Source of the DNA: a virus
Direction: 5' to 3' (one strand)
Virus genome (UHGV): UHGV-1354231
DNA: 39,909 nucleotides
Part shown: in pieces, positions 21,218 through 39,909 of the stretch
Layout: every line of letters begins with the position of its first letter
Position numbering within the stretch: position 1 is the stretch's first letter
Made by a program: the position numbers and the translations under genes
Notes under the pieces: generated by a model
Told to the model about the DNA's origin: nothing
What the model saw: only the letters and a program-made list of their open reading frames with translations
Database searches by the model: none

Positions 21218-21256
21218 AAAAATTTTTAACTCTTTGATTTTTCTACTCTGTATCAT

Positions 21257-21318: not shown

Positions 21319-21363
21319 AAATTCAATCACTTACACATCATTAAGTCAGTGACAAAAATCACA

Positions 21364-22599: not shown

Positions 22600-22657
22600 A
22601 GCTATATCTCATAACCGCCGCTAACTATATACGGTTAGCGGCAATTAGGGTTGAACA

Positions 22658-25084: not shown

Positions 25085-25177
25085 TATTGGTAAACCTCAT
25101 CACAGATTTAAGGGTGAACAAATCTCTGCCATTGCTGACATATAAGAATGAAACTGGATATTTATTACGGTGCTGTT

Positions 25178-26121: not shown

Positions 26122-26340
26122 TTAACGCGGGTATGTAATCATTCTGGCAATGCTTAATGCCGCTGCTTTTTCCAGCCTGGTGATATCCTGCTCCAGAGCG
26201 GACAGATTTTCAGCCTGCTTAGCCCTGGCTTCATTGGCCCATTTCAGATCCTGCGCTGCATTAATTTTCTGGCGCATCCACTCATAAAGTTCATCATCGG
26301 TATAGTCTGGCGCGATGATGACGGGTTCTCGTTTCTGCAT
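26122..26340 (-). CDS. Hypothetical 72-aa early-left protein
   Basis: ORF in the leftward operon; no family recognised. Confidence 0.45.
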   Translation of the reverse strand: MQKREPVIIAPDYTDDELYEWMRQKINAAQDLKWANEARAKQAENLSALEQDITRLEKAAALSIARMITYPR

Positions 26341-26369
26341 ACTGATTCCTCGCGGTGCTGCTTCGCTTA

Positions 26370-26498
26370 TCAGCCGTTAGATTTTGCCGAGCTGGAAAGC
26401 GCCTGTTTAAACTCACTGAAGCTGAGAGCTTCTTCGCCTTCGGCAAGGCCTTCGAAGTATTCTTCGTAAGCCTTTTCCATGATTGTGTCGAAATCCAT
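26370..26498 (-). CDS. Small acidic 42-aa protein (below the ORF-track cutoff)
   Basis: Hand translation MDFDTIMEKAYEEYFEGLAEGEEALSFSEFKQALSSSAKSNG; GGTGAG SD; start abuts the upstream gene stop. Confidence 0.4.
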   Translation of the reverse strand: MDFDTIMEKAYEEYFEGLAEGEEALSFSEFKQALSSSAKSNG

Positions 26499-26499
26499 A

Positions 26500-26736
26500 T
26501 CACTCACCTGAGTTTCTTTCCAGCCAGCGACGGGCACCATTTTCGGTTTTAAACGTTTTGCTTTTGGTATACGTCATCGCGGTGAATGTGCCGTCCTGGT
26601 TGGGAAACACGCCGTACACCAGAGATTCGTTGTTGCCAAGATCGATAGTATCCATGTTGACCTCATTTCCCCTTAACGCCGGGGTAGCGGAACAAAAACC
26701 TGCTGCATAGTTATTAAAGTTGAACCCTGCCGTCAT
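26500..26736 (-). CDS. Hypothetical protein, first gene of the leftward operon (real start may be the internal ATG at 26655)
   Basis: 78-aa ORF downstream of the putative pL. Confidence 0.45.
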   Translation of the reverse strand: MTAGFNFNNYAAGFCSATPALRGNEVNMDTIDLGNNESLVYGVFPNQDGTFTAMTYTKSKTFKTENGARRWLERNSGE

Positions 26737-26836
26737 GTTCTTACGCCTCGGGCTGGCTACTTAACCCCTGACCACTGCCTGGTAACTCGAAGTATTGCCC
26801 GGCGTTCTGTGGGGCGGGGTGGGTTGGTATGCAATA

Positions 26837-26865
26837 AATCTAAAAGTATTTAGTTTTATAGTCAA
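26837..26865 (-). promoter_or_regulatory. Putative pL promoter (TTGACT-17-TAGATT) overlapped by an OL-like operator (AATCTAAAAGTATTTAGTTT, 26837-26856)
   Basis: Palindrome matches the OR site at 27644-27663 in 16 of 20 positions; -35/-10 hexamers with 17-bp spacer on the minus strand. Confidence 0.45.
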
Positions 26866-26883
26866 GGGGAATCTAAATTAATT

Positions 26884-26909
26884 TAAAAAAAAGGTCGGCA
26901 TAACCGACC
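26884..26909 (-). terminator. Rho-independent terminator for the repressor gene
   Basis: GGTCGG-cataa-CCGACC hairpin followed on the minus strand by an 8-9 T run, just after the cI stop. Confidence 0.6.
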
Positions 26910-26932
26910 TTAAGTTCAAGGACATGGCAGGG

Positions 26933-27580
26933 TTATAGGTTGAACTGCACACCTTTTGCTACGGCAACAATTTTACACTCTGGCGTAAGCAAGGATGATT
27001 GATAGCGCGGATTGAGAGGGCTTAAATACACAAGTTTTCCATCAATAACTAATTTTTTTATAGTCATAGACGGTTCATTTGTAAGTGGATCTGGAACTAT
27101 TACAGCGACGATACTGCCATTTTTATAACTCTCTCCTGGTCTTAGGATCACAGTGGCACCAACCGGGATACTTGGCGACCCTGAGGGGTTATGCATAGTG
27201 TCATCAGGCATTGAAACGGCAAAATCACCTTCCACTACATCAAAGAATGTGGTGATCCTATCGACATTTCCCATTGTTTTCTCTCCTTCTAAGATTAGGA
27301 AAGAAATCGCGTCACCCCACGAAAAGTAGGGGATCTTGGTGCCTGGATTGCTCTGCACAAAAGATAGTTCAGGAGACGATACTCCATACAGGAGATAGGA
27401 CTCAGTAGTTCCTAATGCCTGGGCTAACTTACTTAGAGCTTTGCTGCCGGGTTCGTTTAGATCTTTCTCCCAGTACCCTATAGTAACCCCAGTCACGCCT
27501 GAAAGCTTACCCAGTTCTACTTGGGTGAGTCCCTTATCTTTTCTGAGTTTCTTAAGCCTGATGCCAAGGCTTTCCATCAT
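26933..27580 (-). CDS. CI-type phage repressor (HTH_XRE N-terminal domain + LexA/S24 peptidase C-terminal domain)
   Basis: 215-aa ORF divergent from a cro-like gene; HTH motif LTQVELGKLSGVTGVTIGYWE; S24-like C-terminal domain. Confidence 0.9.
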   Translation of the reverse strand: MMESLGIRLKKLRKDKGLTQVELGKLSGVTGVTIGYWEKDLNEPGSKALSKLAQALGTTESYLLYGVSSPELSFVQSNPGTKIPYFSWGDAISFLILEGEKTMGNVDRITTFFDVVEGDFAVSMPDDTMHNPSGSPSIPVGATVILRPGESYKNGSIVAVIVPDPLTNEPSMTIKKLVIDGKLVYLSPLNPRYQSSLLTPECKIVAVAKGVQFNL

Positions 27581-27609
27581 TTTCTCCCGCGAGTTGAATA
27601 TAAATTATT

Positions 27610-27663
27610 TTAGATTGCATTGACCTAAAAAAAATTATCCTGTAATCTAAAAATACTTAGATT
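27610..27663 (+). promoter_or_regulatory. OR-like operator/promoter region: PR candidate TTGACC(27620)-17-TAATCT(27643) with TTAGATT/AATCTAA half-sites
   Basis: Imperfect palindrome AATCTAAAAATACTTAGATT overlapping the -10; extra half-site at 27610-27616. Confidence 0.5.
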
Positions 27664-27676
27664 TTAGGAGAGTGAA

Positions 27677-27904
27677 ATGCGAGTTGATGAACTTGTTCAG
27701 TTTTTTGGCTCTGTTCAGAGGGTCGCTGATTTTTATGGGATAACCCGCGAAGCTATTTACATGTGGCGTAAGCGCCCCGGTGAAATAGTTCCGAAAGGGA
27801 GGGCTGCGGAAGCTGCTGCATACTCCAAGGGAAAATTATCTTTGAACCCAGAGCTTTACAAAAAGAAGGATACCACCCGGGACAAAAGGAAGAGTGATTC
27901 ATGA
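27677..27904 (+). CDS. Cro-like HTH regulator (YdaS-like)
   Basis: 75-aa ORF divergent from cI with GGAGAG SD. Confidence 0.65.
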   Translation: MRVDELVQFFGSVQRVADFYGITREAIYMWRKRPGEIVPKGRAAEAAAYSKGKLSLNPELYKKKDTTRDKRKSDS

Positions 27905-28326
27905 AAATCAAACATGAACATATCCGCATGGCGATGAATGCTTGGGCGCATCCGGACGGCGAAAAAGTACCGGCTGCGAAAATTACCAAAGCGTATTTCG
28001 AGCTGGGAATGACGTTCCCGGAACTGTATGACGACAGCCATCCGGAAGCCCTGGCTCGCAATACTCAGAAAATTTTCCGCTGGGTGGAGAAAGACACCCC
28101 TGATGCGGTTAAAAAAATTCAGGCGTTGTTACCAGCTATCGAAAAAGCAATGCCACCTCTGCTGGTGGCCCGAATGCGCAGCCATAGCTCAGCCTATTTT
28201 CGGGAACTAGTGGAGACGCGGGCACGACTGGTGAGAGACGCTGATGATTTTGTCGCAGTGGCGATCGCTGGTTTCAACCAGATGAATCGTGGTGGCCCTG
28301 CAGGAAATATTGTGGCTGTGCATTGA
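27901..28326 (+). CDS. YdaT-like protein (CII-position regulator)
   Basis: 141-aa ORF overlapping the cro-like stop; Rac-type ydaS-ydaT arrangement as recalled. Confidence 0.5.
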   Translation: MKIKHEHIRMAMNAWAHPDGEKVPAAKITKAYFELGMTFPELYDDSHPEALARNTQKIFRWVEKDTPDAVKKIQALLPAIEKAMPPLLVARMRSHSSAYFRELVETRARLVRDADDFVAVAIAGFNQMNRGGPAGNIVAVH

Positions 28327-28391
28327 CTCGCAATATTCATACCGGATCATTTCCGGCAATTTGTGAGTAAAAAGATTCGGTATCAAAAGAG

Positions 28392-29468
28392 GTGAGTATG
28401 GCTAACGCCTGGCTCAGATTATGGCATGACATGCCAAATGACCCTAAGTGGCGAACAATTGCCAGGGTGTCAGGGCAGCCAATTGCAACAGTGATGGCAG
28501 TGTATATCCACCTATTGGTAAGCGCGTCACGAAATGTCACGCGAGGTCACATTGATGTCACGACAGAAGATTTGGCAAGTGCGCTCGACGTGACAGAAGA
28601 GGTAATTGATTCGATTTTGCTGACGATGCAGGGGCGGGTACTTGATGGTGATTTAATCACTGGATGGGAAAAACGCCAGGTGCTGAAAGAGGACAACGGC
28701 AATATTTCGCAAACCGCAAAATCTCCTGCAGAGCGCAAGAGGGCGCAGCGAGAGAGGGAAAGAAAGCGGGAACAAAATGGCGATTGTCACGGCGCGTCAC
28801 GAAATGTCACGCACATGTCACGACGAGTCACGACAGATAAAGATACAGATAAAGATACAGATCAAGAAGATCAAAACACTATGGTCCATGGCGTAAAAAA
28901 CGCCACGAACCAGGCAGGGGATGTTCAGACCGTCAATCCTGGTCAGCCAGCAGGCACGACACCGGAAGCCGATTCAGCGTATGCGCTGAAAGCCGATTCG
29001 GGCGCTGTGCAGCAGGTGATGACCGCAAGGCCGGAGCAATCACACCAACTGCAGCAGCCTGAAGTCGATTCCGCCATTCAGCGGGAAGCCGATCGGGTAG
29101 TCCCGGAAAACACCGGGCAGCCTGTGGGACGAGTGGATTATCCGGATGTGTTCGAACAGGTCTGGCGGGAATACCCGTTGCGTGCTGGGGCAAACCCGAA
29201 GAAATCCGCTTTCAGTGCTTGGAAGGCCAGATTACGCGAGGGGGTGTCACCAGAGGCCATGCTGGATGGCGTGAGGCGTTACGCAAGATACCTGGCGGCT
29301 ACCGGGAAAACGGGAACGGAATTTGTTCAGCGAGCGACGACGTTTTTTGGACCGGACCGGAATTTTGAAAACCCCTGGCTGCTCCCGGTAAGCGGCACGA
29401 ACAACCAGCGTTGTGTGAATCATATTTCTGAACCGGATACCGAAATTCCACCGGGCTTCAGGGGGTAA
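28392..29468 (+). CDS. Replication initiator (YdaU-like), probably starting at ATG 28398
   Basis: 358-aa ORF after the cII-position gene; contains two iteron clusters. Confidence 0.65.
   Translation: MSMANAWLRLWHDMPNDPKWRTIARVSGQPIATVMAVYIHLLVSASRNVTRGHIDVTTEDLASALDVTEEVIDSILLTMQGRVLDGDLITGWEKRQVLKEDNGNISQTAKSPAERKRAQRERERKREQNGDCHGASRNVTHMSRRVTTDKDTDKDTDQEDQNTMVHGVKNATNQAGDVQTVNPGQPAGTTPEADSAYALKADSGAVQQVMTARPEQSHQLQQPEVDSAIQREADRVVPENTGQPVGRVDYPDVFEQVWREYPLRAGANPKKSAFSAWKARLREGVSPEAMLDGVRRYARYLAATGKTGTEFVQRATTFFGPDRNFENPWLLPVSGTNNQRCVNHISEPDTEIPPGFRG
28521..28565 (+). repeat. Iteron cluster 1: four GTCAC(G/A) repeats at 10-11 bp spacing inside the initiator gene
   Basis: GTCACG at 28526, 28536, 28557 and GTCACA at 28546. 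Confidence 0.6.
28781..28876 (+). repeat. Iteron cluster 2 (five GTCACG repeats at 10-11 bp spacing) followed by A-rich GATAAAGATACA tandem repeats; candidate replication origin
   Basis: GTCACG at 28786, 28796, 28806, 28817, 28827; then GATAAAGATACAGATAAAGATACAGATCAAGAAGATCAAAAC. Confidence 0.6.
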
Positions 29469-29508
29469 GTGTTTATTTCAGGTCATGAGGTAATTTTCAG
29501 GAGGACTT

Positions 29509-29934
29509 GTGGCAAAAGTATTTACACAAGAAGAGCGGGAAAAAATTAAGAGGCAGGTTGTTGAACTCGTGCGCCAGAGCGGGCGCGAGACGTTACGACA
29601 ACTGGAAGCGAAAACAGGTGCGACAAGATATCTGATGAGTGTTCTCGCCAGAGAGCTGGTTGCCAGTGGCGATGTATACAATTCTGGCTACGGGTTATTC
29701 CCGTCTGAACAGGATCGTAAGGACTGGCAAAACGCCCGCAAAAAACTCTCAAGGGCAAAGCTGAAGAAAAAAACACCTGTGGTTGATCCGGACCTTATCT
29801 GGTCATTACCTGACGGAGAAATACGTCGCTACGACAGTCGCCTAAACATAATCTGTCGCGAGTGCCGGAAGAGCGAAGTTATGCAGCGCGTGCTGGCGTT
29901 TTATCAGGGGAATTTTCAGGAGGTGGTGCGGTGA
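29509..29934 (+). CDS. Hypothetical 141-aa protein
   Basis: GTG start with CAGGAGGA SD; no family recognised. Confidence 0.5.
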   Translation: MAKVFTQEEREKIKRQVVELVRQSGRETLRQLEAKTGATRYLMSVLARELVASGDVYNSGYGLFPSEQDRKDWQNARKKLSRAKLKKKTPVVDPDLIWSLPDGEIRRYDSRLNIICRECRKSEVMQRVLAFYQGNFQEVVR

Positions 29935-30197
29935 GTGAATCAAAATGCAGGGTTAATGGCAATCAGATAGAACCATGTGCGGCACTGGCAAAATCCCTTG
30001 AGCATGATGCTGAATACACGACGCGAAAAGGTCTGCTGATATACAAAATCTGGAATGAGAGTTTAACTCGCGGCCCTGATTTGGTGATGTTGCGTTCCGG
30101 TGAATTTTCTAAATCACCAGTTCGGGTTTCATTTTGCCCGTTCTGTGGTGAAAGTCTGAAAACGTGGGAAGCGGAGGCAACCAGTGAGCAAAATTAA
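29931..30197 (+). CDS. Hypothetical small protein with C-terminal Cys cluster (CPFCGE)
   Basis: GTG at 29931 with CAGGAGG SD, overlapping the upstream stop (GTGA). Confidence 0.45.
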   Translation: MSESKCRVNGNQIEPCAALAKSLEHDAEYTTRKGLLIYKIWNESLTRGPDLVMLRSGEFSKSPVRVSFCPFCGESLKTWEAEATSEQN

Positions 30198-30369
30198 CTA
30201 TCAAGAACTGCGCGAGGCGGCGGAACAGGCAACGCAAGATGAATGGGTAGCATATATTTTGCCGGGTCATAACGGCATTTATCCTGCGCGCACGTCTGAG
30301 GGTAGGCATTGTGCGGATACTTTATTGACTGGCCTGGCGTCTGTCAGGGGCGGGAGAGCATCAACATGA
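30184..30369 (+). pseudogene. Ea22-like N-terminal fragment; frame breaks before the Ea22-like body at 30366-30872
   Basis: N-terminus MSKINYQELREAAEQ and DNA at 30184-30230 closely parallel 30869-30915; ORF stops after 61 codons. Confidence 0.4.
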
Positions 30370-30872
30370 GCATCAGAACCTACGCAGTGAATTGCAATGA
30401 CGCATGGCTAAACACCGAAGGTGATGACATCTCCGGCTCATACGTTAAGTACAAAGACCATCAGGAAGTGGTTGCCGCTCTTGAGGCCAAGTGCGCGGCG
30501 CTGGCAGCGGAGAATGCGGGAATAAAGTCTGCAATTCCAGAATCACGGGATATTGAAGATGACAATGACAATATGGATGACGTATCTCTCGCGGAAGACT
30601 TCGGGTTCAATCATGCAATAGAACGGATGAGGAGACAGATACCTGAAACACCAACCACTGATGCTTTCCTGGCTGAAGTCCGGGCGCAGGGGGTGGATGC
30701 TGCTATAGAAGCTGCAAAAAATCTGGTGGCCCAAGAATATGAGTATAAGGATTTCAAAGCGGCGCAGAGTGATTGCTGTATGTACCCTGGTTCAGACCTG
30801 GTAGGGAAGGTTGAAATGACTGAGTGGTTAGTTGACTTTGCTGCCCAGCTTCGCAAAGGAGGCAACCAGTGA
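30366..30872 (+). CDS. Ea22-like protein body (168 aa from ATG 30366)
   Basis: Coiled-coil Ala-rich region and DAFLAEVRAQGVD-type segment typical of Ea22-like proteins as recalled. Confidence 0.5.
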   Translation: MSIRTYAVNCNDAWLNTEGDDISGSYVKYKDHQEVVAALEAKCAALAAENAGIKSAIPESRDIEDDNDNMDDVSLAEDFGFNHAIERMRRQIPETPTTDAFLAEVRAQGVDAAIEAAKNLVAQEYEYKDFKAAQSDCCMYPGSDLVGKVEMTEWLVDFAAQLRKGGNQ

Positions 30873-32128
30873 GCGAAATTAATTACCAGGCACTGCGTGA
30901 GGTGGCGGAACGTGCAATTCCAGCAATGGAACGCCTGTTAATGTTGCCAGCTGATGATGACTTGTTAAGTGAACAGGAACTTAAAGATTACGGTGTGGAT
31001 ATTGATGCGCTCAACGCCTTCAAATTTCTGACCGGACCAGAAACCGTGCTGGCACTGCTGGATGAACGGGAAAGAAACCTGCAATACATCAAAAGCCGCG
31101 ATCAGGAGAACGAGGATATTGCGCTAACGGTAGGGAAGCTGAGAGTTGAGCTTGAGGAAGTAAAACAACACGCTGAAGAATTATCCGAAACCAAGGCTGT
31201 TCGTAACCAATGGCGGCCAGATATTTGCCCAATAACCGGACGTGCATTTTTCATGTGGATTGAGCATCCAACATTGGGGAATGTGCCGACATATGGTGGC
31301 CCATTAGATAGTTACACCATTCCAACAAAGGACGGTGACGGTGAGTTTTCATGTGAGCGTTACGATCATGATTTTGGCGGTTGGGTAGAAAGCGAATGTC
31401 TTGGGTTATATCTGATTGATGATAGAGAACAATGCAGGGTCTACGAACTGGAGGAACGCGTTAAGGAACTGGATGCTCGGGAAATATCGCTCCCGGAACG
31501 TAGCAGCATGCTTCATCGAACAGATTTTCACGATGATTACCAAACGGTAATGGCATACAAAGTTTCTGAAGTCATCGCTGCAATCCGCGCCGCCATGCTT
31601 CAGTCCGGAAACTTTCGGGAAAACAAGAATTCGTCAACCAATAATTTTCGGGAAATCGCGGAAACGTCAACCAACTATCCGGCAATTCCTAGTGAGGTGT
31701 TGTCCGCAATCCTGAAGGTTGCCAGGATTCGTGCCGATTTCGATGATTTTGACGGTGACAGGCGAGGTATCGGTGATTGTCTGGATGAGGCTGAGCAAGA
31801 GCTTATCGTTACCATTAACAAATATGCCAGTCAGTTGGCAGCAGAACCTATAGCGCCTAATGACGTTCGAGAGCAGACAGCCATTCCACAAGTTCCGGCA
31901 ACTCCGGATGGTTGGATAAGCTGTAGTGAGCGAATGCCTGAGAACATTCCCGGAAGTTGTAAAGAGTATCTGGTGTTTGATGGGCTTAATAATAAAGTTC
32001 ATCACGATTACTGGGTTGTCCCTGATGGAGACAGTGCGCCAGTTGCGTCGTTCTGGAATCATTACGGGGCACATGTAACCCACTGGATGCCGCTACCAGA
32101 ACCGCCGCAGGAGGTTAACCGTGGCTAA
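30869..32128 (+). CDS. Ea22-like protein with DUF551-type C-terminus
   Basis: N-terminus MSEINYQALREVAE; C-terminal HWMPLPEPP motif. Confidence 0.65.
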   Translation: MSEINYQALREVAERAIPAMERLLMLPADDDLLSEQELKDYGVDIDALNAFKFLTGPETVLALLDERERNLQYIKSRDQENEDIALTVGKLRVELEEVKQHAEELSETKAVRNQWRPDICPITGRAFFMWIEHPTLGNVPTYGGPLDSYTIPTKDGDGEFSCERYDHDFGGWVESECLGLYLIDDREQCRVYELEERVKELDAREISLPERSSMLHRTDFHDDYQTVMAYKVSEVIAAIRAAMLQSGNFRENKNSSTNNFREIAETSTNYPAIPSEVLSAILKVARIRADFDDFDGDRRGIGDCLDEAEQELIVTINKYASQLAAEPIAPNDVREQTAIPQVPATPDGWISCSERMPENIPGSCKEYLVFDGLNNKVHHDYWVVPDGDSAPVASFWNHYGAHVTHWMPLPEPPQEVNRG

Positions 32129-32741: not shown

Positions 32742-32782
32742 GAGTAGATTATGCATGATGAATTTGATGGGTTTTGAATACT

Positions 32783-32808
32783 GCCGCCAACTATGGCGGC
32801 TTTATTTT
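32783..32808 (+). terminator. Rho-independent terminator upstream of the second small terminase
   Basis: GCCGCC-aactat-GGCGGC followed by TTTATTTT. Confidence 0.65.
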
Positions 32809-32815
32809 GCATGGT

Positions 32816-32844
32816 ACTATTACCACAACGGTAACTATTACCAC
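32816..32844 (+). repeat. Direct repeat ACTATTACCAC x2 (18-bp period) upstream of the second small terminase
   Basis: Copies at 32816-32826 and 32834-32844. Confidence 0.7.
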
Positions 32845-32851
32845 GGTGGTT

Positions 32852-33292
32852 ATGATGCCTGCTGAACCTAAAACCTATAAACGCAAATCAACGCAATTTA
32901 AGCCACTAACAGCAATGCAGGAGGCTTATTGCCAGTCATACATCAAAACGCCTGAAAACCAGACTCAGGCAGCGATTAACGCAGGATTCTCCCCAAATAC
33001 AGCGGCAGTTAAAGCCAGTGTCATGATGCGCGATGAACGCATTCAAAAACGGATTGCCGAGTTGATGGAGGAGCGCAACAAACGAATGCGCGTCAGTGCT
33101 GATTACGTTCTCATGCGCCTGGTGGAGATCGACCAGATGGACGTGATCGACATCCTCAACGACGATGGGAGCCTTAAACCAATCCGTGAGTGGCCGAAAA
33201 TCTGGCGCACTACGCTTAGTGGCTTTGATCTGTCATCGACCATCATGAACATGAACGAGGATTCGATAGAGACAATCCTACAAAAAAATTAA
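32852..33292 (+). CDS. Terminase small subunit of the second packaging module; probably truncated by a frameshift in an A7 tract
   Basis: HTH-like segment typical of small terminases; start taken at ATGATG 32852 after the terminator rather than ORF start 32774. Confidence 0.6.
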
Positions 33293-33445
33293 ATGGCCTG
33301 ACAAGGTGAAGAACCTTGAGCTGATTGGTAAGCATGTTGATGTCAACGCGTTCAAAGAACGTCTGGATGTTAATGTGAATGTGACAATTGCTGATCGCAT
33401 AGCAGCAGCCAGGAAGCGACTCAAAGAACGTCAGGATGGTAATCA

Positions 33446-34921
33446 GTGACAGATACAGCGTTATCTCCTGAAGAGCAGTTGATCGAGGATATTGCAGGGT
33501 TCACTCACGATCCGCTTGGCTATGCCCTCTATGCGTTCCCGTGGGGGGAAGAGGGGACTGAACTGGCACATGCTACCGGCCCACGTCAGTGGCAGGCTGA
33601 TGCGTTCCGAGAGATACGTGATCACCTGCAGAATCCAGAGACGCGCTATCAGCCGCTTATGCTGGCACGTGCTTCGGGTCACGGTATTGGTAAATCCGCA
33701 TTCATCTCAATGCTGATCAACTGGGGCATGTCCACTTGCGAGGATTGTAAGGTCGTGGTGACCGCCAACACCGACAACCAGCTACGAACGAAGACCTGGC
33801 CGGAAATTATCAAGTGGTCGAACCTTGCTATCACGAAAGACTGGTTTACCTGTACCGCTACCGCGATGTACAGCAATGACCCAGGGCACGACAAGCGATG
33901 GCGGGCTGACGCAATACCCTGGTCTGAGCACAACACTGAGGCATTCGCCGGACTACACAACGAGCGCAAACGCATCATCGTGGTATTCGATGAAGCGTCG
34001 AACATTGCCGATCTGGTGTGGGAGGTAGCAGAGGGTGCGCTGACGGACGAAGACACCGAAATCATCTGGGTGGCGTTCGGGAACCCGACGCGTAACACCG
34101 GGCGTTTCCGTGAATGTTTCCGCAAGTACAAACACCGCTGGAAGTGTGCGCAGATTGACAGCCGGACGGTGGAAGGCACTAACAAACAGCAGTTGCAGAA
34201 ATGGGTTGATGACTACGGGGAAGACAGCGACTTCGTTAAAATCCGTGTGCGCGGCATATTCCCTGATGCATCTGAATTGCAGTTTATCCCTACCGGTCTT
34301 ACTGACGAGGCAATGAAACGGGTGGTAACCGCTGCGCAGGTTGCACATGCTCCGGTGATAATCGGTGTTGACCCGGCATATTCAGGCGTTGATGACGCGG
34401 TGATATACCTGCGGCAGGGGCTACACAGTAAGGTGCTGTGGACTGGCAACAAGACTACCGACGATCTGATTATGGCGAAGCGTATCGCTGATTTTGAAGA
34501 CCTGTATCAGGCTGACGCAGTGTTCATCGACTTTGGTTACGGTACCGGTCTGAAGTCAATCGGTGACGGTTGGGGGCGCACATGGCAACTTGTTCCGTTC
34601 GGTGGCGCGTCTACTGACCCGCAGATGCTCAACAAGCGTGGGGAGATGTTCAACTCATGCAAGACATGGCTGAGGCTGGGCGGGATGCTTGATGACCAGG
34701 AAACAGCGGACGACCTGTCGGCGGCAGAGTACAAAGTTCGAGTGGACGGTAAAATCGTTATCGAACCGAAGGAAGATATCAAGGAGCGGCTTGGGCGTTC
34801 GCCGGGTAAAGGCGATGCGCTATTGCTGACGTTTGCTTTCCCTGTGTCGAAGCGTCTGCGAATTCCAGGTCAGCAGAACCAGCAAGGCAAGGCCATTACA
34901 GATTACGATCCCTATGCTTAA
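33446..34921 (+). CDS. Terminase large subunit (second packaging module)
   Basis: 491 aa; Walker A-like GHGIGKS, Walker B-like VVFDEAS, C-terminal RNaseH-like nuclease region. Confidence 0.85.
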
Positions 34922-34971
34922 TCCGCTGGTGGGGATAATGTCGTTGATATCCTCTGGTGAGGATAAAACAA

Positions 34972-34998
34972 AGCCAGCTCATAGGCTGGCTGTTTGTG
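34972..34998. terminator. Hairpin between convergent genes (possible bidirectional terminator)
   Basis: GCCAGC-tcatag-GCTGGC flanked by T-rich sequence on the + strand and A-rich upstream; followed by the palindrome. Confidence 0.5.
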
Positions 34999-35007
34999 AC
35001 ATGTCAC
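34996..35007. repeat. Perfect 12-bp palindrome GTGACATGTCAC (copy 2)
   Basis: Identical to copy 1; position fixed using ORF 34957..35148 as coordinate anchor. Confidence 0.85.
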
Positions 35008-35011
35008 GGTG

Positions 35012-35367
35012 TTATTGCTCGCTTAACTTCTGCTTCAGCAAGTAACCTTCAAGCATCCAGATTTTGTTTACAGCATTCTGCCTGGCAATCTTCCGACCAA
35101 TTTCTGCATCAAAGTTTTCCGGGCTTGCACATGCGCTCTCTCCGGTGACGGTGAAGCCATTCTTCAGCACCAGTACGCAGAAAGTAAGGAGGTCTGTAGA
35201 TTTATGCGCTGTCCACGTATCGCCAACGCCCATATTGGCAGCACGAATGCCGTCATAAGCAGTAAAGAAATGCTCTTCAAGAATGATGCTTTCGATATAT
35301 TGAGGCGTAACTCGCGGAGCGGTTTTGCCTTTCTCAACGATTCTTTTTCGATTTGCTGGTCGTTCAT
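35012..35367 (-). pseudogene. Unknown moron gene with a good start at 35367 (frame A, 67 aa) running into a longer open frame ending at 35012; apparently frame-disrupted
   Basis: GGTGAG SD before ATG 35367; second frame open for ~115 codons but its first ATG (35233) has no SD. Confidence 0.35.
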
Positions 35368-35566
35368 AATCTCACCTTAAAAAAAATGCCCGTCGAACCG
35401 GGCGAACTGGAAGCAATGAGTTATGCCTTCCGTGGCTGTACGGGTTTACAGCATGAAGTCATCGCAATGGCGTCCTGCTGTAAAAAGGGCGGTGATAGTC
35501 CTTCAAGGGAAACTGTCACCGCCAAGCACCTGGAACTTCTGGCATCACGGTCCTTAGGCGTGATTC

Positions 35567-35644
35567 TGGCGTGGCATGCAGGATTCGAACCTGACAACCA
35601 ACCGCTTAGAAGGCGGTTGCTCTGTCCAACTGAGCTAATGCCAC
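35567..35644 (-). tRNA. tRNA-Arg (anticodon UCU), phage-borne; T-stem reads with a one-base bulge
   Basis: Hand-folded cloverleaf: acceptor GTGGCAT/ATGCCAC, anticodon arm ACCGC-CTTCTAA-GCGGT, T-loop TTCGAAT, 3' GCCA; resembles argU as recalled. Confidence 0.7.
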
Positions 35645-36072
35645 AACGCTGAGAGCACTTAGCCTGTTAAGGCGCCTACACTTTGTCGCGGCTCCATAAA
35701 TGCTCTCATCGTTGTACCCTCGTCTCTTCCGAGGCGTCACACCGAATCGCCGGGATGGTGAATCCCCGTGCGCGGAATAAAACCGCTCGACTTGCACATT
35801 CCGGCTACCTGGTTCGTTTGCCCGAGCAAGGGAGGGTACCCCTTAAACGTATCCAGACCGCTATCGGCGCATGTGCCATACGCCGTACTGCTCAAAATAA
35901 AAGCTCACTCCACCTGTTCAATTTAACGACAAGCCAGTCAGGTTAATAACCGGAATGAACTCTTTGCCTACCTGAAAGGTAATAACTCGTGCGTTAAATG
36001 TCAATTATCTACGATAAATAAATCATATGTGGTTAAATTGGTAATAATTTAATTGCGTACGGAGTCATTGAT

Positions 36073-36279
36073 ATGTGCATGGGTAGCTCACCATCAGTGC
36101 CTGCAACACCAGAAGTTCAGGCAGCACCACAGGAGCAGGATGCCGCCGTTGTTGATGCCCGCGACGAAGAAACACGTCGCCGTCGCGCTGCTGCTGGTCG
36201 TAGTTCTACGCTGCTTACCGGTTCTCAGGGCGACACATCAACCGCTAATACCAGCGGTAAAACGCTACTTGGTCAGTAA
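36073..36279 (+). CDS. Hypothetical 68-aa protein upstream of the portal
   Basis: ORF with GGAG-like SD; Ala/Thr/Gln-rich low-complexity sequence. Confidence 0.3.
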   Translation: MCMGSSPSVPATPEVQAAPQEQDAAVVDARDEETRRRRAAAGRSSTLLTGSQGDTSTANTSGKTLLGQ

Positions 36280-36293
36280 CCGGAGTCATTGAA

Positions 36294-37973
36294 ATGGCGG
36301 AAACAACTAAAGAGCGATTGAACAAACAGTTCGCACAACTTGAAAGCGAGCGTCAGTCGTTCGAGCCGCACTGGCGCGAGTTGAGTGATTACATCAACCC
36401 GCGTGGTTCCCGCTTTCTGACTTCTGAGGTCAACCGTAACGATCGACGCAATACACGCATTATTGATTCGACCGGGACTATGGCGGCGCGCACTCTCGCC
36501 AGCGGCATGATGTCAGGCATCACAAGCCCCGCGCGTCCGTGGTTTCGCCTGGCTACGCCAGATCCTGAAATGATGGATTATGGCCCTGTTAAGTTGTGGC
36601 TTGAGGCCGTGCAGAACCGCATGAACGATATGTTCAATAAGTCGAATCTCTATCAGTCGCTGCCGCAGTTATATGGAAGCCTCGGCACATACAGCACCGG
36701 TGCAATGGCGGTACTGGAGGATGATGAGGACATCATTCGCACAATGCCATTCCCGATAGGCAGTTACTACCTAGCTAACTCACCTCGTGGCAGTGTGGAC
36801 ACCTGTTTTCGCAAGTTCTCTATGACTGTTCGTCAGCTTGTTCAGGAGTTCGGGCTAAATAACGTCAGCGAATCCGTAAAAAGCATGTGGGAAAGCGGCA
36901 CCTACGAGAAGTGGATTGAAGTGATGCATTCGGTTTACCCGAACATTGACCGCGATACATCGAAGCTGGATAGCAAGAACAAGCCATTCAAATCGGTTTA
37001 TTACGAGGTTGGTGGCGATAACGACAAGTTGTTGCGTGAGTCCGGATTCGATGAGTTTCCAATTATGGCTCCGCGCTGGGAAGTTAACGGCGAAGATGTT
37101 TATGGATCATCATGCCCGGGTATGCTGGCGCTTGGACCTGTTAAGGCATTGCAGCTTCTCCAGAAGCGCAAGTCGCAGTTGATTGATAAAGCCACCAATC
37201 CGCCGATGATTGCTCCGACTTCCCTCAAGAATCAGCGTGCCTCCCTTCTTCCTGGCGACATCACGTATATCGATCAGATTACTGGTCAGGATAGTTTCAG
37301 GCCTGCTTATCTGGTTAACCCCAGTACAGCAGATTTGGTGGCAGACATTCAGGACACTCGTCAAATCATTAACAGCGCCTACTTTGTCGATCTGTTCATG
37401 ATGTTGCAGAACATCAATACCCGCTCGATGCCTGTTGAAGCGGTGATCGAAATGAAAGAAGAAAAACTTCTGATGTTGGGGCCGGTTCTGGAGCGTCTGA
37501 ACGACGAATGTCTTAATCCTCTCATTGACCGCGCTTTCTCGATGATGGTGCGTAAAAACATGCTGCCGCCACCACCTGACGCGATGGAAGGTATGCCCCT
37601 GAAGGTCGAATACATTTCCGTCATGGCTCAGGCGCAGAAGTCTATCGGCCTGTCCAGTCTGGCATCCACGGTCAACTTCATTGGTCAACTTGCGCAAGCG
37701 AAACCAGAAGCTCTCGACAAACTCAACGTTGATCAGGCGATCGATGCATTCGCTGATATGTCCGGAGTGTCTCCAACCGTCATTGTTCCGCAGGAACAGG
37801 TTGAGCAGGCTCGCCAGCAACGGGCACAGCAACAACAGCAGCAACAAATGATGGCGATGGGGATGGCGGCGGCACAGGGTGCCAAGACGCTAAGCGAAGC
37901 TAAAACTTCGGATCCGAGTGTTTTGTCAGCTATGGCGAATGCATTTAGTGGTCAGGGTGGGCAATCACAATGA
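36294..37973 (+). CDS. Portal / head-tail connector protein (podovirus T7-type)
   Basis: 559 aa; Gln-rich C-terminus QQQQQQQMMAMGMAAAQGA resembles the T7 gp8 C-terminus as recalled; followed by scaffold and capsid genes. Confidence 0.75.
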   Translation: MAETTKERLNKQFAQLESERQSFEPHWRELSDYINPRGSRFLTSEVNRNDRRNTRIIDSTGTMAARTLASGMMSGITSPARPWFRLATPDPEMMDYGPVKLWLEAVQNRMNDMFNKSNLYQSLPQLYGSLGTYSTGAMAVLEDDEDIIRTMPFPIGSYYLANSPRGSVDTCFRKFSMTVRQLVQEFGLNNVSESVKSMWESGTYEKWIEVMHSVYPNIDRDTSKLDSKNKPFKSVYYEVGGDNDKLLRESGFDEFPIMAPRWEVNGEDVYGSSCPGMLALGPVKALQLLQKRKSQLIDKATNPPMIAPTSLKNQRASLLPGDITYIDQITGQDSFRPAYLVNPSTADLVADIQDTRQIINSAYFVDLFMMLQNINTRSMPVEAVIEMKEEKLLMLGPVLERLNDECLNPLIDRAFSMMVRKNMLPPPPDAMEGMPLKVEYISVMAQAQKSIGLSSLASTVNFIGQLAQAKPEALDKLNVDQAIDAFADMSGVSPTVIVPQEQVEQARQQRAQQQQQQQMMAMGMAAAQGAKTLSEAKTSDPSVLSAMANAFSGQGGQSQ

Positions 37974-38266
37974 CAGATTACGAAGACGATCAACTGAAAG
38001 AAGAAAACGCCCGTAAGCAACGTGACATGGCACAGCGTGAAATTGATGACATTCGCTTTGTCATGAGCAGTGAACAGGGGCGTCGCGTTGTCTGGTCGGT
38101 GCTGGAGAAAGGCCGGGTGTTTTCCGCTATCTCTCCGATGGATGCTATGGCAATGGCATTTAATGAGGGGCAACGCAATCTGGCGCTGGAACTGTTTCAG
38201 CGCGTTATGGCGCATTGCCCTGAACAGTATTTGAAGATGGCCAAAGAGGCCAGTGAACAGGAGTGA
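37970..38266 (+). CDS. Hypothetical 98-aa head-module protein
   Basis: ATGA overlap with the portal stop. Confidence 0.45.
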   Translation: MTDYEDDQLKEENARKQRDMAQREIDDIRFVMSSEQGRRVVWSVLEKGRVFSAISPMDAMAMAFNEGQRNLALELFQRVMAHCPEQYLKMAKEASEQE

Positions 38267-38964
38267 TCATGAATTTATTTGAGCGTTTGCTGTATCGCCG
38301 TCTTTGCAATGAGCAACCAGTTGATGGCGGAGCAGCTCCGGCTGCGTCAGAACCGTCAGCGCCTGCAGGTGATAACCCTGCTCCAGTTGGTGATCCATCA
38401 CAACTGGAAGGTGATAAGCCACAACCTGTTGCTGATGGCGATAAACCTGCTGATGACAAAAAGCCTGAAAACGATAAGCAGGATGAAAAAAAGGACGGCG
38501 ATAAACCAGAGGGGGCGCCTGAGAAGTACGAGTTTCAGGCTGCCGAAGGCGTAGAGCTGGATACAGAAGCGTTGAAGGAATTCGAGCCGGTGGCGCGAGA
38601 ACTTAACCTGACCAACGAGCAAGCGCAAAAGCTGGTTGATGCTTATCCGAAGATTCTGGCAGGTGTTCAGCAGCGCCAGGCAGAAGCCTGGCAGAAAACA
38701 ACCGAGCAGTGGGCTGCGGATGTAAAAGCTGACAAAGAAATCGGTGGCGACAAGTTGATTTCTAACCTTAGCGCCGCACAGCGTGCGCTTGACCAGTTCG
38801 GGACACCTGAACTCAAAGAATATCTGAACACCACCGGACTGGGTAATCACCCTGATCTGGTCAAAACGTTCGTGAAAATCGGAAAGGCGATGTCTGAAGA
38901 TGGCATGGTCACCGGTGGTAATGAAGGCCAGCGTAGTGCGGCCGAAGTGCTCTATGGCAAATAA
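38263..38964 (+). CDS. Putative scaffolding protein (acidic, Pro/Asp/Lys-rich N-terminal half); likely start at ATG 38269
   Basis: Position between portal and major capsid; AGGAG SD upstream. Confidence 0.5.
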   Translation: MIMNLFERLLYRRLCNEQPVDGGAAPAASEPSAPAGDNPAPVGDPSQLEGDKPQPVADGDKPADDKKPENDKQDEKKDGDKPEGAPEKYEFQAAEGVELDTEALKEFEPVARELNLTNEQAQKLVDAYPKILAGVQQRQAEAWQKTTEQWAADVKADKEIGGDKLISNLSAAQRALDQFGTPELKEYLNTTGLGNHPDLVKTFVKIGKAMSEDGMVTGGNEGQRSAAEVLYGK

Positions 38965-38978
38965 GAGAGGAAATGACA

Positions 38979-39909
38979 ATGGCTGTTAAAGGCTTAACTG
39001 CGCTAACGCTGGCTGACTGGGGTAAGCGCGTCGATCCAAACGGGAAAGTCGATAAGATTATCGAGCTTCTCGGTCAAACTAACCCGATCCTTCAGGATAT
39101 GCCTTTTGTCGAAGGGAACCTTCCTACCGGACACCGAACCACCATTCGTTCTGGTTTACCTTCAGCTACCTGGCGTTTGCTGAACTATGGCGTACAGCCA
39201 AGCAAATCAACCACAGTGCAGGTCACCGATTACGTTGGCATGCTGGAAACCTATGCTGAAGTCGATAAGTCACTGGCTGATCTGAACGGCAATACCGCCG
39301 AATTCCGCCTGTCTGAAGACCGAGCATTTATTGAAGCGATGAATCAGCAGATGGCGCAGACGCTGTTTTATGGTGATTCCAGCGTTAACCCTCAGCAGTT
39401 TATGGGACTGTCCTCCCGCTATTCCAGCCTGTCTGCGGGTAATGCTCAGAACATCATTGATGCTGGTGGCACGGGTACAGATAACACCTCAATCTGGTTA
39501 GTGGTGTGGGGCGAAAACACCGTGCATGGCATCTTCCCGAAAGGGCAGAAGGCTGGCATCCAAATGGAAGATAAAGGCCAGGTGACACTGGAAGATGCTA
39601 ATGGCGGCAAGTACGAAGGCTATCGCACCCATTACAAATGGGATAACGGACTTGCTCTACGTGACTGGCGTTATGTTGTTCGCATTGCAAACATCGATGT
39701 CAGCAATCTTTCAGAACCTTCCTCTGCCGCAAATATTGCGAAGTTGATGGTTAAAGCACTGCATCGCATTCCAAATCGTGGCATGGGTCGCCCGGTGTTC
39801 TACATGAACCGCACTGTAGGCCAGGCTCTTGATCTGCAATCTCTGGAGAAAACATCTCTGGCGATCAGCGTAAAAGAGACAGAAGGCGAGTGGTGGACTT
39901 CATTCCGTG
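38979..39909 (+). CDS. Major capsid protein, 3' end cut off by the window edge
   Basis: ATG at 38979 with GAGAGG SD; frame open to window end (~310 codons); position after scaffold. Confidence 0.65.
   Translation, partial: MAVKGLTALTLADWGKRVDPNGKVDKIIELLGQTNPILQDMPFVEGNLPTGHRTTIRSGLPSATWRLLNYGVQPSKSTTVQVTDYVGMLETYAEVDKSLADLNGNTAEFRLSEDRAFIEAMNQQMAQTLFYGDSSVNPQQFMGLSSRYSSLSAGNAQNIIDAGGTGTDNTSIWLVVWGENTVHGIFPKGQKAGIQMEDKGQVTLEDANGGKYEGYRTHYKWDNGLALRDWRYVVRIANIDVSNLSEPSSAANIAKLMVKALHRIPNRGMGRPVFYMNRTVGQALDLQSLEKTSLAISVKETEGEWWTSFR

What the first reader, a model, noticed from the sequence alone, without database searches (positions are those of the whole stretch)
34922..36072. Minus-strand moron (tRNA-Arg(UCU) plus frame-disrupted unknown gene) inserted between terminase and portal
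Terminase large subunit and portal genes are normally adjacent. Here 1.37 kb separates them, carrying a leftward unit: tRNA-Arg(UCU), then an unknown gene whose well-initiated frame (ATG 35367, GGTGAG SD) stops after 67 codons while an overlapping frame stays open ~115 codons to 35012, then a hairpin shared with the terminase gene. A single-base change in an A5 run near the 5' end would fuse the start to the long frame, giving a ~118-aa protein. The tRNA as read has a one-base bulge in the T-stem. The unknown protein is a candidate accessory or exclusion gene.
Basis: partly seen in the sequence, partly recalled or inferred. Interest (0 to 1): 0.5.

Follow-up and report, generated by a model that had tools for sequence, protein, structure and literature searches.

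The report
Damaged tRNA–Acb4 anti-defence phage cassette
The gap between the terminase and portal genes of this phiV10-like prophage holds a common leftward accessory cassette (a structured RNA, a tRNA-Arg(UCU) and an Acb4-family anti-CBASS "sponge" gene). Here the tRNA and the sponge gene are each spoiled by a one-base indel seen in no other copy, so the cassette is ordinary and only the unannotated RNA in front of it looks new.

Summary
The tRNA-Arg(UCU) lies at 35567-35644(-). A 67-codon frame starts at ATG 35367 and overlaps a long open frame that runs to 35012. A bidirectional hairpin follows terL.

The "unknown gene" is not unknown. With one A restored, the 118-aa product matches Pfam PF13876 (E 1.6e-34). 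This is the Acb4 anti-CBASS sponge family (SPO1 Acb4, PDB 9E4W).

The cassette sits at the same place in phiV10, in hundreds of E. coli prophages and in IMG/VR contigs. In nearly every copy compared the gene is intact and the tRNA is 77 nt.

The frameshift, the T-stem bulge and two further one-base indels are private to this window. So is a fifth, 2 kb away, which breaks terS. Against the nearest relative the cassette differs by 4 indels and only 2 substitutions. That means very recent decay or a poorly polished stretch of assembly, and only reads can decide.

- The position after the tRNA is a swap site. Other copies carry Tad2 or unrelated genes there.
- The 330 nt upstream of the tRNA is a covariation-supported structured RNA with no Rfam match. 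It occurs in prophages of at least ten enterobacterial genera.

The parts
34972..34991 (.). Bidirectional intrinsic terminator between terL (rightward) and acb4 (leftward)
   Evidence: Terminator scan finds AGCCAGCCTATGAGCTGGCT followed by TTGTTTT on the minus strand. phiV10 annotates a terminator at the same place. It is conserved in all relatives.
35012..35367 (-). acb4 (Pfam PF13876, 'Gp49 family') gene, frameshifted as written. One A is missing at 35341/35342 (GAAAAAG[A]AATCG), so the start frame stops after 67 codons while the conserved frame runs on to 35012.
   Evidence: ORFs. Alignment to intact 118-123-aa genes. The repaired protein matches PF13876 at E 1.6e-34 over the full profile. 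phmmer to PDB 9E4W Acb4 gives E 0.006.
35379..35403 (-). Terminator T2: GCCCGGTTCGACGGGC followed by T8, directly abutting the acb4 Shine-Dalgarno. It carries a private extra T (T8 against T7) and a private stem substitution.
35480..35523 (-). Terminator-like hairpin T1: GGCGGTGA...TCACCGCC followed by CTTTTT, downstream of the tRNA. Two adjacent private substitutions lie at 35514-35515.
   Evidence: Read from the sequence. The scan tool missed it because its loop exceeds 8 nt. Inference.
35567..35644 (-). tRNA-Arg(UCU), 78 nt, with a private inserted U in the T-stem (window 35594) and a private C-to-U change beside it (35596).
   Evidence: ARAGORN. Rfam scores 60.7 bits here against 71.7 bits for the 77-nt copy in strain JML285. 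All 99 copies in fetched loci are 77 nt. The minimum-free-energy fold loses the cloverleaf arms.
35645..35970 (-). Conserved structured RNA candidate of about 330 nt. The core is 35714-35892. The 3' domain is closed by the helix 35714-35701 / 35657-35644 and ends at the tRNA 5' end. The private +1 insertion at 35677 lies in its 3' domain.
   Evidence: Alignments. RNAalifold. Pair counts: 96.3% of cells paired against 26-46% when slid, 8 compensatory pairs, 0 of 500 shuffles reaching the observed score. The covariance model hits at 141 bits. The closing helix is shown. No Rfam match.
35968..36004 (-). Promoter-like site for the leftward unit: TTGACA (36004-35999), 17 nt, TACCTT (35981-35976), overlapping the palindrome ATTACCT-TTC-AGGTAG (35983-35968).
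   Evidence: Conserved across E. coli, Salmonella, Klebsiella, Citrobacter, Pseudocitrobacter, Scandinavium and Pseudescherichia copies. Coordinates. The consensus scan did not call it. Its function is inferred.
36005..36072 (+). AT-rich block invariant between genera, just upstream of the 68-aa ORF. Probably the rightward promoter or 5' UTR of the gp3-portal operon.
   Evidence: Inference only.
36073..36279 (+). 68-aa ORF (epsilon15 gp3 homologue, phrog_831) preceding the portal gene. It marks the right border of the cassette.
32774..33449 (+). terS, broken by a fifth private one-base insertion at 33280 (CCT[A]CAAAAAAA). It is 224 aa in relatives and split into 172-aa and 47-aa frames here.

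Best explanation
Window 34922-36072 is the standard leftward accessory cassette of phiV10/epsilon15-like (Uetakevirus-type) late regions.

Reading leftward from a conserved promoter-like site near 36000, the cassette contains in order:
- a structured RNA of about 330 nt;
- tRNA-Arg(UCU);
- two terminator hairpins;
- one cargo gene, here an Acb4-family (PF13876) gene;
- a terminator shared with terL.

Inferred functions. Acb4 proteins are small tetrameric sponges that sequester CBASS cyclic-dinucleotide signals (3'3'-cGAMP and cUA; homologues from Gram-negative phages also bind cAA). They therefore let a phage escape CBASS abortive infection. The tRNA supplies decoding of AGA, which phiV10 uses about three times more often than E. 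coli does.

State of this copy. The tRNA carries a one-base insertion in its T-stem, and acb4 carries a one-base deletion nine codons in. As written, no full-length Acb4 is made and the tRNA is weakened. These lesions are private to this sequence, as are two more one-base indels in the cassette and one in terS. They reflect either very recent decay of a prophage or unpolished indel errors in this stretch of the assembly. I rate the two roughly even, with a slight lean to error.

What is shown: the identity of the parts, their conservation, the privacy of the lesions, and the RNA covariation.
What is inferred: sponge activity of this particular homologue, promoter use, the codon-supplementation role, and any role of the RNA.
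For: Identity of the gene:
- PF13876 match at E 1.6e-34 over the full profile.
- Chang et al. equate PF13876 with the Acb4 family. They report 1,331 homologues, 8 of 8 tested bound 3'3'-cGAMP, and a tetrameric structure, PDB 9E4W.
- Direct phmmer hit to 9E4W (E 0.006). The ENF-x-x-EIGR core and F48/F62/I66 equivalents are conserved.

Conservation of the cassette:
- Same cassette with an intact gene in phiV10 (PhiV10p03), typing phage 9, and E. coli strains JML285 and CE0021a, where it is annotated 'Gp49 family protein' plus tRNA-Arg.

Privacy of the lesions:
-.
- tRNA scores 60.7 bits here against 71.7 in a relative.

Other support:
- AGA is 7.1 per 1000 codons in phiV10.
- Cargo swapping at the same joint: Tad2-like genes in L141, L142 and Klebsiella phage ST512-KPC3phi13.3.
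- RNA structure.
Against: - No expression data exist, and the leftward promoter has only a weak -10 and was not called by the consensus scan.
- Two terminators lie between the tRNA and acb4, so how the cargo gene is transcribed is unexplained.
- Several SPO1 ligand contacts differ in this homologue (E49 to T, Y57 to A, T70 to I), so its ligand range is unknown.
- Identity to the solved protein is detectable only over 43 residues.
- The single-sequence AlphaFold model was unusable (pLDDT 36), so the fold was not confirmed here.
- Whether the indels are real cannot be decided from the sequence. The ratio of 4 indels to 2 substitutions against L058 argues for error. The complete absence of indels in terL and portal argues weakly for selection on real mutations.
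Confidence: 0.85

Rival explanations
1. The five one-base indels (33280, about 35342, about 35380, 35594, 35677) are sequencing or assembly errors in a poorly polished 2.4-kb patch. In that case the real phage has an intact acb4, a normal 77-nt tRNA and an intact terS. This rival concerns only the lesions and is compatible with the identification above.
For: - Against the nearest relative L058 the cassette differs by 4 indels and only 2 substitutions over 1151 bp. This is far from the usual excess of substitutions in natural divergence.
- Four of the five are insertions and two lie in homopolymers, an error-like profile.
- An essential gene, terS, is hit as well.
- None of the alleles recurs in 5,426 E. 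coli genomes or in IMG/VR.
- Some genomes carry two such prophages (places_in_record 2), which hampers polishing.
Against: - No single-base private indel occurs in about 17 kb of other well-covered sequence: 20957-31467 and 35678-39909.
- None occurs within terL or portal, which make up 55% of the 5.8 kb compared.
- Three of the five are not in homopolymers.
- The same lineage also carries private substitutions in this stretch.
Confidence: 0.5
2. The lesions are real. The prophage is defective and decaying, having lost terS, acb4 and part of the tRNA's function.
For: - Close relatives of the early region carry an integrase annotated as frameshifted, so this prophage type is often defective.
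- The indels spare terL and portal.
- One other locus among about 50 also has a truncated acb4.
Against: - The indel:substitution ratio of 4:2 is hard to reach by neutral decay.
- terL carries mostly third-position private changes, which means purifying selection until recently.
- No second isolate shares any of the indels.
Confidence: 0.42
3. The split frame is functional. A -1 slip of tRNA-Lys on G-AAA-AAG restores the long frame, the next codon then being AGA, which the neighbouring tRNA reads. Acb4 would then be made by programmed frameshifting. Alternatively, the 73-aa internal ORF (35012-35233) is expressed on its own.
For: The -1 frame after GAA-AAA reads AGA-ATC-GTT and gives a 118-aa product with only an E9R change. 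This is sequence inspection only.
Against: - Hundreds of relatives all have the in-frame gene, so the shift site is not conserved.
- The heptamer is not in the X-XXY-YYZ register for the start frame.
- There is no stimulatory hairpin or internal Shine-Dalgarno, and five A's are too few for transcriptional slippage.
- The internal ATG has no Shine-Dalgarno and would lack the N-terminal helices.
Confidence: 0.03
4. The gene is a superinfection-exclusion or toxic moron expressed from the lysogen, rather than a counter-defence sponge.
For: - The gene position does hold membrane plus coiled-coil proteins in other loci, which could be exclusion or abortive-infection genes.
- Opposite orientation to the late operon, with its own terminators, is typical of morons.
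Against: - The protein in this window is a full-length PF13876 match.
- All eight family members tested by Chang et al. bound the CBASS signal, and SPO1 Acb4 rescued T4 from CBASS.
- Tad2, another sponge, occupies the same position in relatives.
Confidence: 0.05

Closest known systems
Acb4 (anti-CBASS 4) of Bacillus phage SPO1, PDB 9E4W; Pfam PF13876 Phage_gp49_66 (N4 gp49 / Sf6 gp66 family)
   Same: - Full-length PF13876 domain (E 1.6e-34).
- Small size: 118 aa against 96 aa.
- Conserved beta-core and ENF-x-x-EIGR segment.
- F48, F62 and I66 equivalents are kept.
- Phage or prophage location among accessory genes.
   Different: - Similarity to SPO1 Acb4 is detectable over only 43 residues (phmmer E 0.006).
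- Guanine-specific E49 is T here, Y57 is A and T70 is I.
- The N-terminal 60 residues are unrelated and hypervariable among alleles.
- No binding or plating data exist for this subfamily in what I could read.
- The gene is frameshifted in this window.
PhiV10p03 of Escherichia phage phiV10 and the RefSeq 'Gp49 family protein' (WP_000999689.1, WP_000999691.1) of E. coli prophages
   Same: - Same position between terL and the tRNA-Arg.
- Same flanking terminators.
- Over 97% DNA identity.
- The repaired window protein is nearly identical to the 118-aa allele, differing by about one residue (S51T) from the commonest variant.
   Different: Those genes are intact. The window copy lacks one A nine codons in. 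phiV10 itself carries a different middle segment and is 123 aa.
Phage-borne tRNA-Arg(UCU), for example argO of Stx phage 933W and the T4 tRNA-Arg (own knowledge)
   Same: - Anticodon UCU, reading the host-rare AGA.
- Carried by a phage whose genes are richer in AGA than the host's (7.1 per 1000 in phiV10).
   Different: This copy has an extra U in the T-stem and scores 11 bits lower than its relatives. It sits at the 3' end of a larger structured RNA rather than in a tRNA cluster.
Tad2 (Thoeris anti-defence 2, PF11195), as an alternative cargo at the same position
   Same: Another small sponge protein. It occupies exactly the position of acb4 after the tRNA and terminator in L141, L142 and in Klebsiella phage ST512-KPC3phi13.3. 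Sorek-lab work reports frequent Acb4-Tad2 fusions.
   Different: Unrelated fold and ligand (gcADPR). Not present in this window.
Cis-acting processive antitermination RNAs (HK022 put, Bacillus EAR) and large phage-associated ornate RNAs found next to tRNAs (ROOL, GOLLD). These are functional analogies for the upstream RNA only.
   Same: A structured RNA at the start of a phage transcription unit that has to pass terminators before reaching its cargo. Like ROOL and GOLLD it is large, phage-borne and tRNA-adjacent.
   Different: - No sequence or structure match to any Rfam family, including EAR, ROOL and GOLLD.
- put RNAs are about 70 nt, while this RNA is about 330 nt.
- No functional test of any kind has been done.

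Membership tests
Acb4 / PF13876 | Sequence matches the Pfam PF13876 profile above its gathering score | tested here: met
   118.7 bits against a cut-off of 27, E 1.6e-34, profile positions 1-82 of 82, for the one-base-repaired protein. The window's own long frame contains the whole domain.
Acb4 / PF13876 | Detectable homology to the solved founding member (SPO1 Acb4, 9E4W) | tested here: met
   phmmer E 0.006; query residues 61-103 align with chain residues 38-80.
Acb4 / PF13876 | Ligand-contact residues of SPO1 Acb4 (K36, F48, E49, V56, Y57, F62, N63, I66, T70, K81) | tested here: inconclusive
   F48, F62 and I66 are conserved. N63 is D here, but that contact is through the backbone. E49 is T, V56 is C, Y57 is A and T70 is I. 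K36 and K81 fall outside the aligned stretch.
Acb4 / PF13876 | alpha-beta-beta-beta-alpha protomer fold and homotetramer | tested here: inconclusive
   The single-sequence AlphaFold2 model had pLDDT 36.4 and was unusable. No multimer prediction is available.
Acb4 / PF13876 | Binds 3'3'-cGAMP or related CBASS signals and rescues phage from CBASS | not testable with these tools
   This needs EMSA and plaque assays. Chang et al. report that 8 of 8 homologues bound cGAMP, but I could not establish whether this subfamily was among them.
Acb4 / PF13876 | Intact open reading frame | tested here: not met
   A one-base deletion at 35341/35342 stops the start frame after 67 codons. As written it is a pseudogene of the family.
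tRNA (Rfam RF00005), tRNA-Arg(UCU) | Cloverleaf recognised by ARAGORN and Infernal, with anticodon UCU | tested here: met
   ARAGORN. 60.7 bits against a gathering score of 29.
tRNA (Rfam RF00005), tRNA-Arg(UCU) | Regular 5-bp T-stem | tested here: not met
   An inserted U lies between positions 49 and 50. The 99 related copies have no insertion, and this copy scores 11 bits lower.
Any Rfam 15 family (for the RNA at 35645-35970) | Covariance-model match at E of 1 or better | tested here: not met
   There were no matches in the window region or in five diverged copies, apart from tRNAs and two chance-level hits elsewhere.
Processive antitermination RNA (put / EAR type) | Makes RNA polymerase read through downstream terminators in cis | not testable with these tools
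   Only the architecture fits: promoter, RNA, tRNA, two terminators, then cargo.

The most novel reading that the evidence does not exclude
The conserved RNA of about 330 nt that heads the cassette (35645-35970, minus strand) may be an undescribed class of phage non-coding RNA.

What supports a real RNA:
- Compensatory base changes support its helices.
- Invariant U-G wobbles make sense only on the leftward strand.
- It has no Rfam match.

Where it occurs:
- It is found in prophages of at least ten enterobacterial genera.
- It appears in two unrelated genomic contexts: between portal and terL, and beside cI-like repressors.
- In Uetakevirus-type phages it precedes a swap site for anti-defence genes (Acb4, Tad2).

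Possible roles:
- It could act in cis to carry RNA polymerase through the two terminators into the cargo gene.
- It could act in trans on a host system.
Probability: 0.45. Interest if true: 0.65.

Novelty: new member of a known kind. Interest (0 to 1): 0.35.

Why it matters
The flagged gene turns out to be a textbook-recent counter-defence gene. This shows that the terL-portal gap of phiV10/epsilon15-like phages is a dedicated swap site for immune-evasion sponges: Acb4 in E. coli copies, Tad2 in Klebsiella and some E. coli copies. That gives a simple positional rule for mining further anti-defence genes. The 140-aa, 110-aa and 99-aa proteins of unknown function that sit at the same joint are immediate candidates.

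The broken copy itself matters little. At most it marks a prophage that has lost CBASS evasion, and it may be nothing more than an assembly error.

The upstream structured RNA is the piece that could repay work. It is widespread, conserved across genera, unannotated, and physically tied to both a tRNA and the cargo position.

Tried and rejected
- Programmed frameshifting or transcriptional slippage as an explanation of the split frame. Rejected: the site is in frame in every relative, the slippery register is wrong, and there is no stimulator.
- Window-wide random sequencing error. Not supported as a uniform process: there are no private one-base indels in 20957-31467 or 35678-39909. A local unpolished patch remains possible.
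- Looking for the mutant alleles elsewhere. There were 0 hits in IMG/VR for the frameshift allele and for the tRNA +U allele, against at least 120 each for the wild type. No copy at 99% identity or better turned up in 5,426 E. coli genomes.
- Structure prediction of the window's own long frame without an alignment. pLDDT was 36.4, so the model was unusable and no fold search was run.
- Rfam at permissive thresholds on the window region and on five diverged copies of the RNA. Nothing relevant.
- Full-text literature search for four conserved sequence blocks of the RNA, and for put-type antitermination RNAs. Nothing relevant.
- Consensus sigma-70 scan. It found no promoter for the leftward unit. 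The TTGACA-N17-TACCTT site is proposed only from cross-genus conservation.
- PHROGs gives 'unknown function' for the family (phrog_322). The 'anti-CRISPR protein' label on the homologue in phage Huey is an untested annotation and was not adopted.
- A second copy of the RNA in the window's lambdoid early region. None found with the covariance model with filters off.
Full report
**1. What is in the sequence**

The window is a mosaic prophage. Its early region is lambdoid, with an integrase, exonuclease VIII, cI/Cro-type regulators, a replisome organiser and DicF. From about 32.4 kb onward its late region is of the phiV10/epsilon15 (Uetakevirus) type.

The relevant genes are terS at 32774-33449, terL at 33446-34921, a 68-aa epsilon15-gp3 homologue at 36073-36279, and the portal gene at 36294-37973 (Pfam Head-tail_con, E 3e-187).

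- ARAGORN finds a single tRNA in the whole window, tRNA-Arg(tct), at 35567-35644 on the minus strand. Rfam scores it 60.7 bits.
- AAGGTGAGATTATG lies at 35378-35365 and opens a 67-codon frame.
- The neighbouring frame is open for 117 codons to 35012.
- A hairpin with runs on both sides lies at 34972-34991, directly after terL.

**2. The frame-disrupted gene is an Acb4-family gene**

The same position in phiV10 (PhiV10p03, noted as 'similar to gene 66 of Sf6'), in O157 typing phage 9 and in E. coli strains JML285 and CE0021a holds an intact gene of 118-123 codons. RefSeq names it 'Gp49 family protein'.

Alignment shows that the window lacks one A in GAAAAAG(A)AATCG, at 35349-35338. Restoring it gives a 118-aa protein that matches Pfam PF13876 (Phage_gp49_66) over the full profile at E 1.6e-34.

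PF13876 is the family that Chang et al. (bioRxiv 10.1101/2024.12.30.630793) named Acb4. The main points of that paper are:
- SPO1 Acb4 is a 96-aa protein that forms a tetramer binding four molecules of 3'3'-cGAMP.
- It also binds cUA but not c-di-GMP.
- It suffices to rescue T4 from a CBASS operon.
- All eight homologues tested bound cGAMP, and those from Gram-negative phages also bound cAA.

A direct phmmer search of PDB sequences returns only 9E4W, at E 0.006. The ENF-x-x-EIGR segment and the F48, F62 and I66 equivalents are conserved, while E49, Y57 and T70 are replaced.

So the 'unknown protein' is a member of a described counter-defence family. Its ligand range remains untested.

**3. The lesions are private**

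I aligned window 31.9-38.7 kb against four relatives. The only indels private to the window are four single bases, at about 35340, about 35380, 35594 and 35677. They are:
- the frameshift in acb4;
- an eighth T in the run after a terminator hairpin;
- an inserted U in the tRNA T-stem;
- an inserted base upstream of the tRNA.

None of the 395 matching records (gene 5' end) or 508 matching records (tRNA) among 5,426 complete E. coli genomes reaches 99% identity over these sites.

All 99 tRNA copies in the fetched loci are 77 nt, whereas the window's is 78 nt. The normal copy scores 71.7 bits against 60.7 here, and the window copy no longer folds into the cloverleaf arms at minimum free energy.

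The nearest relative of the cassette is IMG/VR contig L058. It differs over 1151 bp by just two substitutions plus these four indels.

A fifth private one-base insertion at 33280 breaks terS. The gene is 224 aa in relatives. No fetched locus shares the window's allele, while 67 carry the wild type.

No such indels occur in 35678-39909, which is covered by 66-87 loci, or in 20957-31467 compared with two relatives.

The evidence pulls two ways:
- An indel:substitution ratio of 4:2, four insertions out of five, and a hit in an essential gene all point to unpolished assembly error.
- The sparing of terL and portal, and the confinement to 2.4 kb, are also compatible with recent decay of a defective prophage.

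The sequence alone cannot decide between these.

**4. Anatomy and likely working of the cassette**

On the minus strand the order is as follows (coordinates):

| Element | Coordinates |
|---|---|
| Promoter-like TTGACA-N17-TACCTT | 36004-35976 |
| Palindrome overlapping it | 35983-35968 |
| Conserved RNA, about 330 nt | 35970-35645 |
| tRNA-Arg(UCU) | 35644-35567 |
| Hairpin plus CTTTTT (T1) | 35523-35480 |
| GC hairpin plus T8 (T2) | 35403-35379 |
| Shine-Dalgarno and ATG of acb4 | immediately after T2 |
| Bidirectional terminator | 34991-34972 |

phiV10 uses AGA at 7.1 and AGG at 4.5 per 1000 codons. E. coli uses them at about 2 and about 1.2-1.6 per 1000 (own knowledge). This fits the usual codon-supplementation role of a phage tRNA-Arg(UCU).

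How the cargo gene is transcribed past two terminators is not explained by the sequence. Readthrough, antitermination or an undetected promoter are all possible.

**5. The gene position is a swap site**

Among the fetched loci that carry the tRNA and have enough downstream sequence, about 50 have acb4 starting roughly 198 nt after it. The others have something else at the same joint:
- a 98-aa Tad2-like protein (PF11195, E 3e-24);
- a 140-aa protein (phrog_4846, unknown function);
- membrane plus coiled-coil proteins of 201-296 aa;
- 115-aa, 110-aa and 99-aa proteins of unknown function.

In Klebsiella phage ST512-KPC3phi13.3 the position holds a 173-aa protein with a Tad2 domain (E 4e-26). 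In Salmonella phage SPN9TCW it holds a 168-aa protein with no Pfam match.

Tad2 and Acb4 are both signal sponges and are often fused to each other (10.1101/2025.07.12.664507). The flanks up to T2 and from the terL terminator onward stay at least 96% identical whatever the cargo.

The acb4 alleles themselves share an invariant C-terminal half and first 22 residues, but have at least five unrelated versions of residues about 23-60.

**6. The 'non-coding' 330 nt is a structured RNA**

Blocks of this region are invariant between E. coli, Salmonella and Klebsiella phages and are separated by variable hairpins.

An exact scan for one block in one-genome-per-species GTDB contigs found 15 loci. They come from Kosakonia, Phytobacter, Citrobacter, Kluyvera, Klebsiella, 'Ca. 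Erwinia dacicola', Pseudocitrobacter, Enterobacter, Scandinavium and Pseudescherichia.

The covariation evidence is as follows, using a 16-sequence core alignment and the RNAalifold structure:
- 96.3% of cells are paired, against 26-46% when the partners are slid by 1-3 columns.
- 8 pairs show changes on both sides, against 0-3 when slid.
- The covariation score is 0.176, against 0.03-0.05 when slid.
- No shuffle out of 500 reaches the observed score.
- Two invariant U-G wobbles would be C-A mismatches on the other strand, so the RNA is leftward.

A 14-bp helix (CAACGAUGAGAGCA / UGCUCUCAGCGUUG) closes a 3' domain and ends at the first base of the tRNA. Compensatory variants of it occur in several genera.

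A covariance model finds exactly one copy in the window, at 35714-35892(-), with 141 bits.

Rfam 15 has no match for it at E of 1 or better, either in the window or in five diverged copies. A full-text search for its sequence blocks found nothing relevant.

The element occurs in two contexts:
- between portal and terL, with or without the tRNA, followed by cargo. The cargo is acb4 in K. pneumoniae ATCC 13883, the 140-aa protein in C. werkmanii, and an apparent HNH-type endonuclease (by eye, not checked against any profile) in P. vulneris.
- in the early regions of other prophages, beside cI-like repressors.

Its function is unknown. A cis antitermination role would fit the architecture, but this is pure inference.

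**7. Verdict**

The finding is real but ordinary in its main claim. It is a known cassette carrying a known kind of counter-defence gene, damaged here by lesions that may be artefacts.

The functional guess was half right: the gene is accessory, but not an exclusion gene.

The value added is threefold: the identification of the gene as Acb4, the recognition of an anti-defence swap site, and an apparently undescribed structured RNA.

Noticed in passing
window 33280 (terS, 32774-33449): A private one-base insertion (CCT[A]CAAAAAAA) frameshifts the small terminase gene, which is 224 aa in relatives. No fetched locus shares the window's allele and 67 carry the wild type. Either the prophage is defective or this stretch of the assembly carries indel errors.
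   Followed up: yes
window 35645-35970 (-); also L227-L241, L224, L225, L150: A conserved structured RNA of about 330 nt with compensatory base pairs and no Rfam match. It occurs in prophages of at least ten enterobacterial genera and in two different genomic contexts.
   Followed up: partly
loci L141, L142, L146, L129, L134, L178, L205, L220, L225 and others (position about 195 nt after the tRNA): The position occupied by acb4 holds other cargo in other phages: Tad2-like sponges, a 140-aa protein (phrog_4846), membrane plus coiled-coil proteins, and several small proteins of unknown function. This looks like a positional hotspot for anti-defence or accessory genes.
   Followed up: partly
Acb4 alleles in L009-L223, corresponding to window about 35190-35300: Acb4 alleles share an invariant C-terminal half and first 22 residues, but have at least five unrelated, different-length versions of residues about 23-60. 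This is a mosaic or hypervariable segment, possibly reflecting ligand or host adaptation.
   Followed up: no
window 36005-36072: An AT-rich block upstream of the 68-aa ORF is invariant from E. coli to Klebsiella, Citrobacter and Pseudocitrobacter phages. It is probably the rightward promoter or leader of the portal operon, divergent from the leftward unit.
   Followed up: no
window 35480-35523 and 35379-35403 (-): Two tandem terminator hairpins lie between the tRNA and the acb4 Shine-Dalgarno, and no recognisable promoter lies between them. How the cargo gene is expressed is unexplained.
   Followed up: partly
window 25729-25780 (-): A DicF antisense RNA (Rfam 76.7 bits) sits in the lambdoid early region, next to dicB, ydfC and ydfB homologues, as in Qin-type prophages.
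   Followed up: no
window about 14000-21000: The left part of the window matches the tail genes of a different lambdoid prophage (gpJ, Lom, tail fibres). These lie directly upstream of this prophage's integrase, as in strain noe1104, so the two prophages are in tandem. The tRNA-Ser attachment site seen in strain 190693 is absent here.
   Followed up: no
window about 23798: A short deletion (6 bases by strict count, about 15 columns in the alignment) within the exonuclease gene, relative to both close relatives (L007, L008).
   Followed up: no
window 35353-35652 (+); phiV10 PhiV10p04: A 99-aa plus-strand ORF runs antisense across the tRNA. It corresponds to the annotated 'hypothetical protein' PhiV10p04 and is almost certainly a spurious gene call.
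   Followed up: no
L243 (Escherichia phage Huey, PQ850609.1 37814-38194): The PF13876 homologue in phage Huey is annotated 'anti-CRISPR protein', whereas PHROGs v4 lists the family as of unknown function. The label appears untested and conflicts with the Acb4 assignment.
   Followed up: partly
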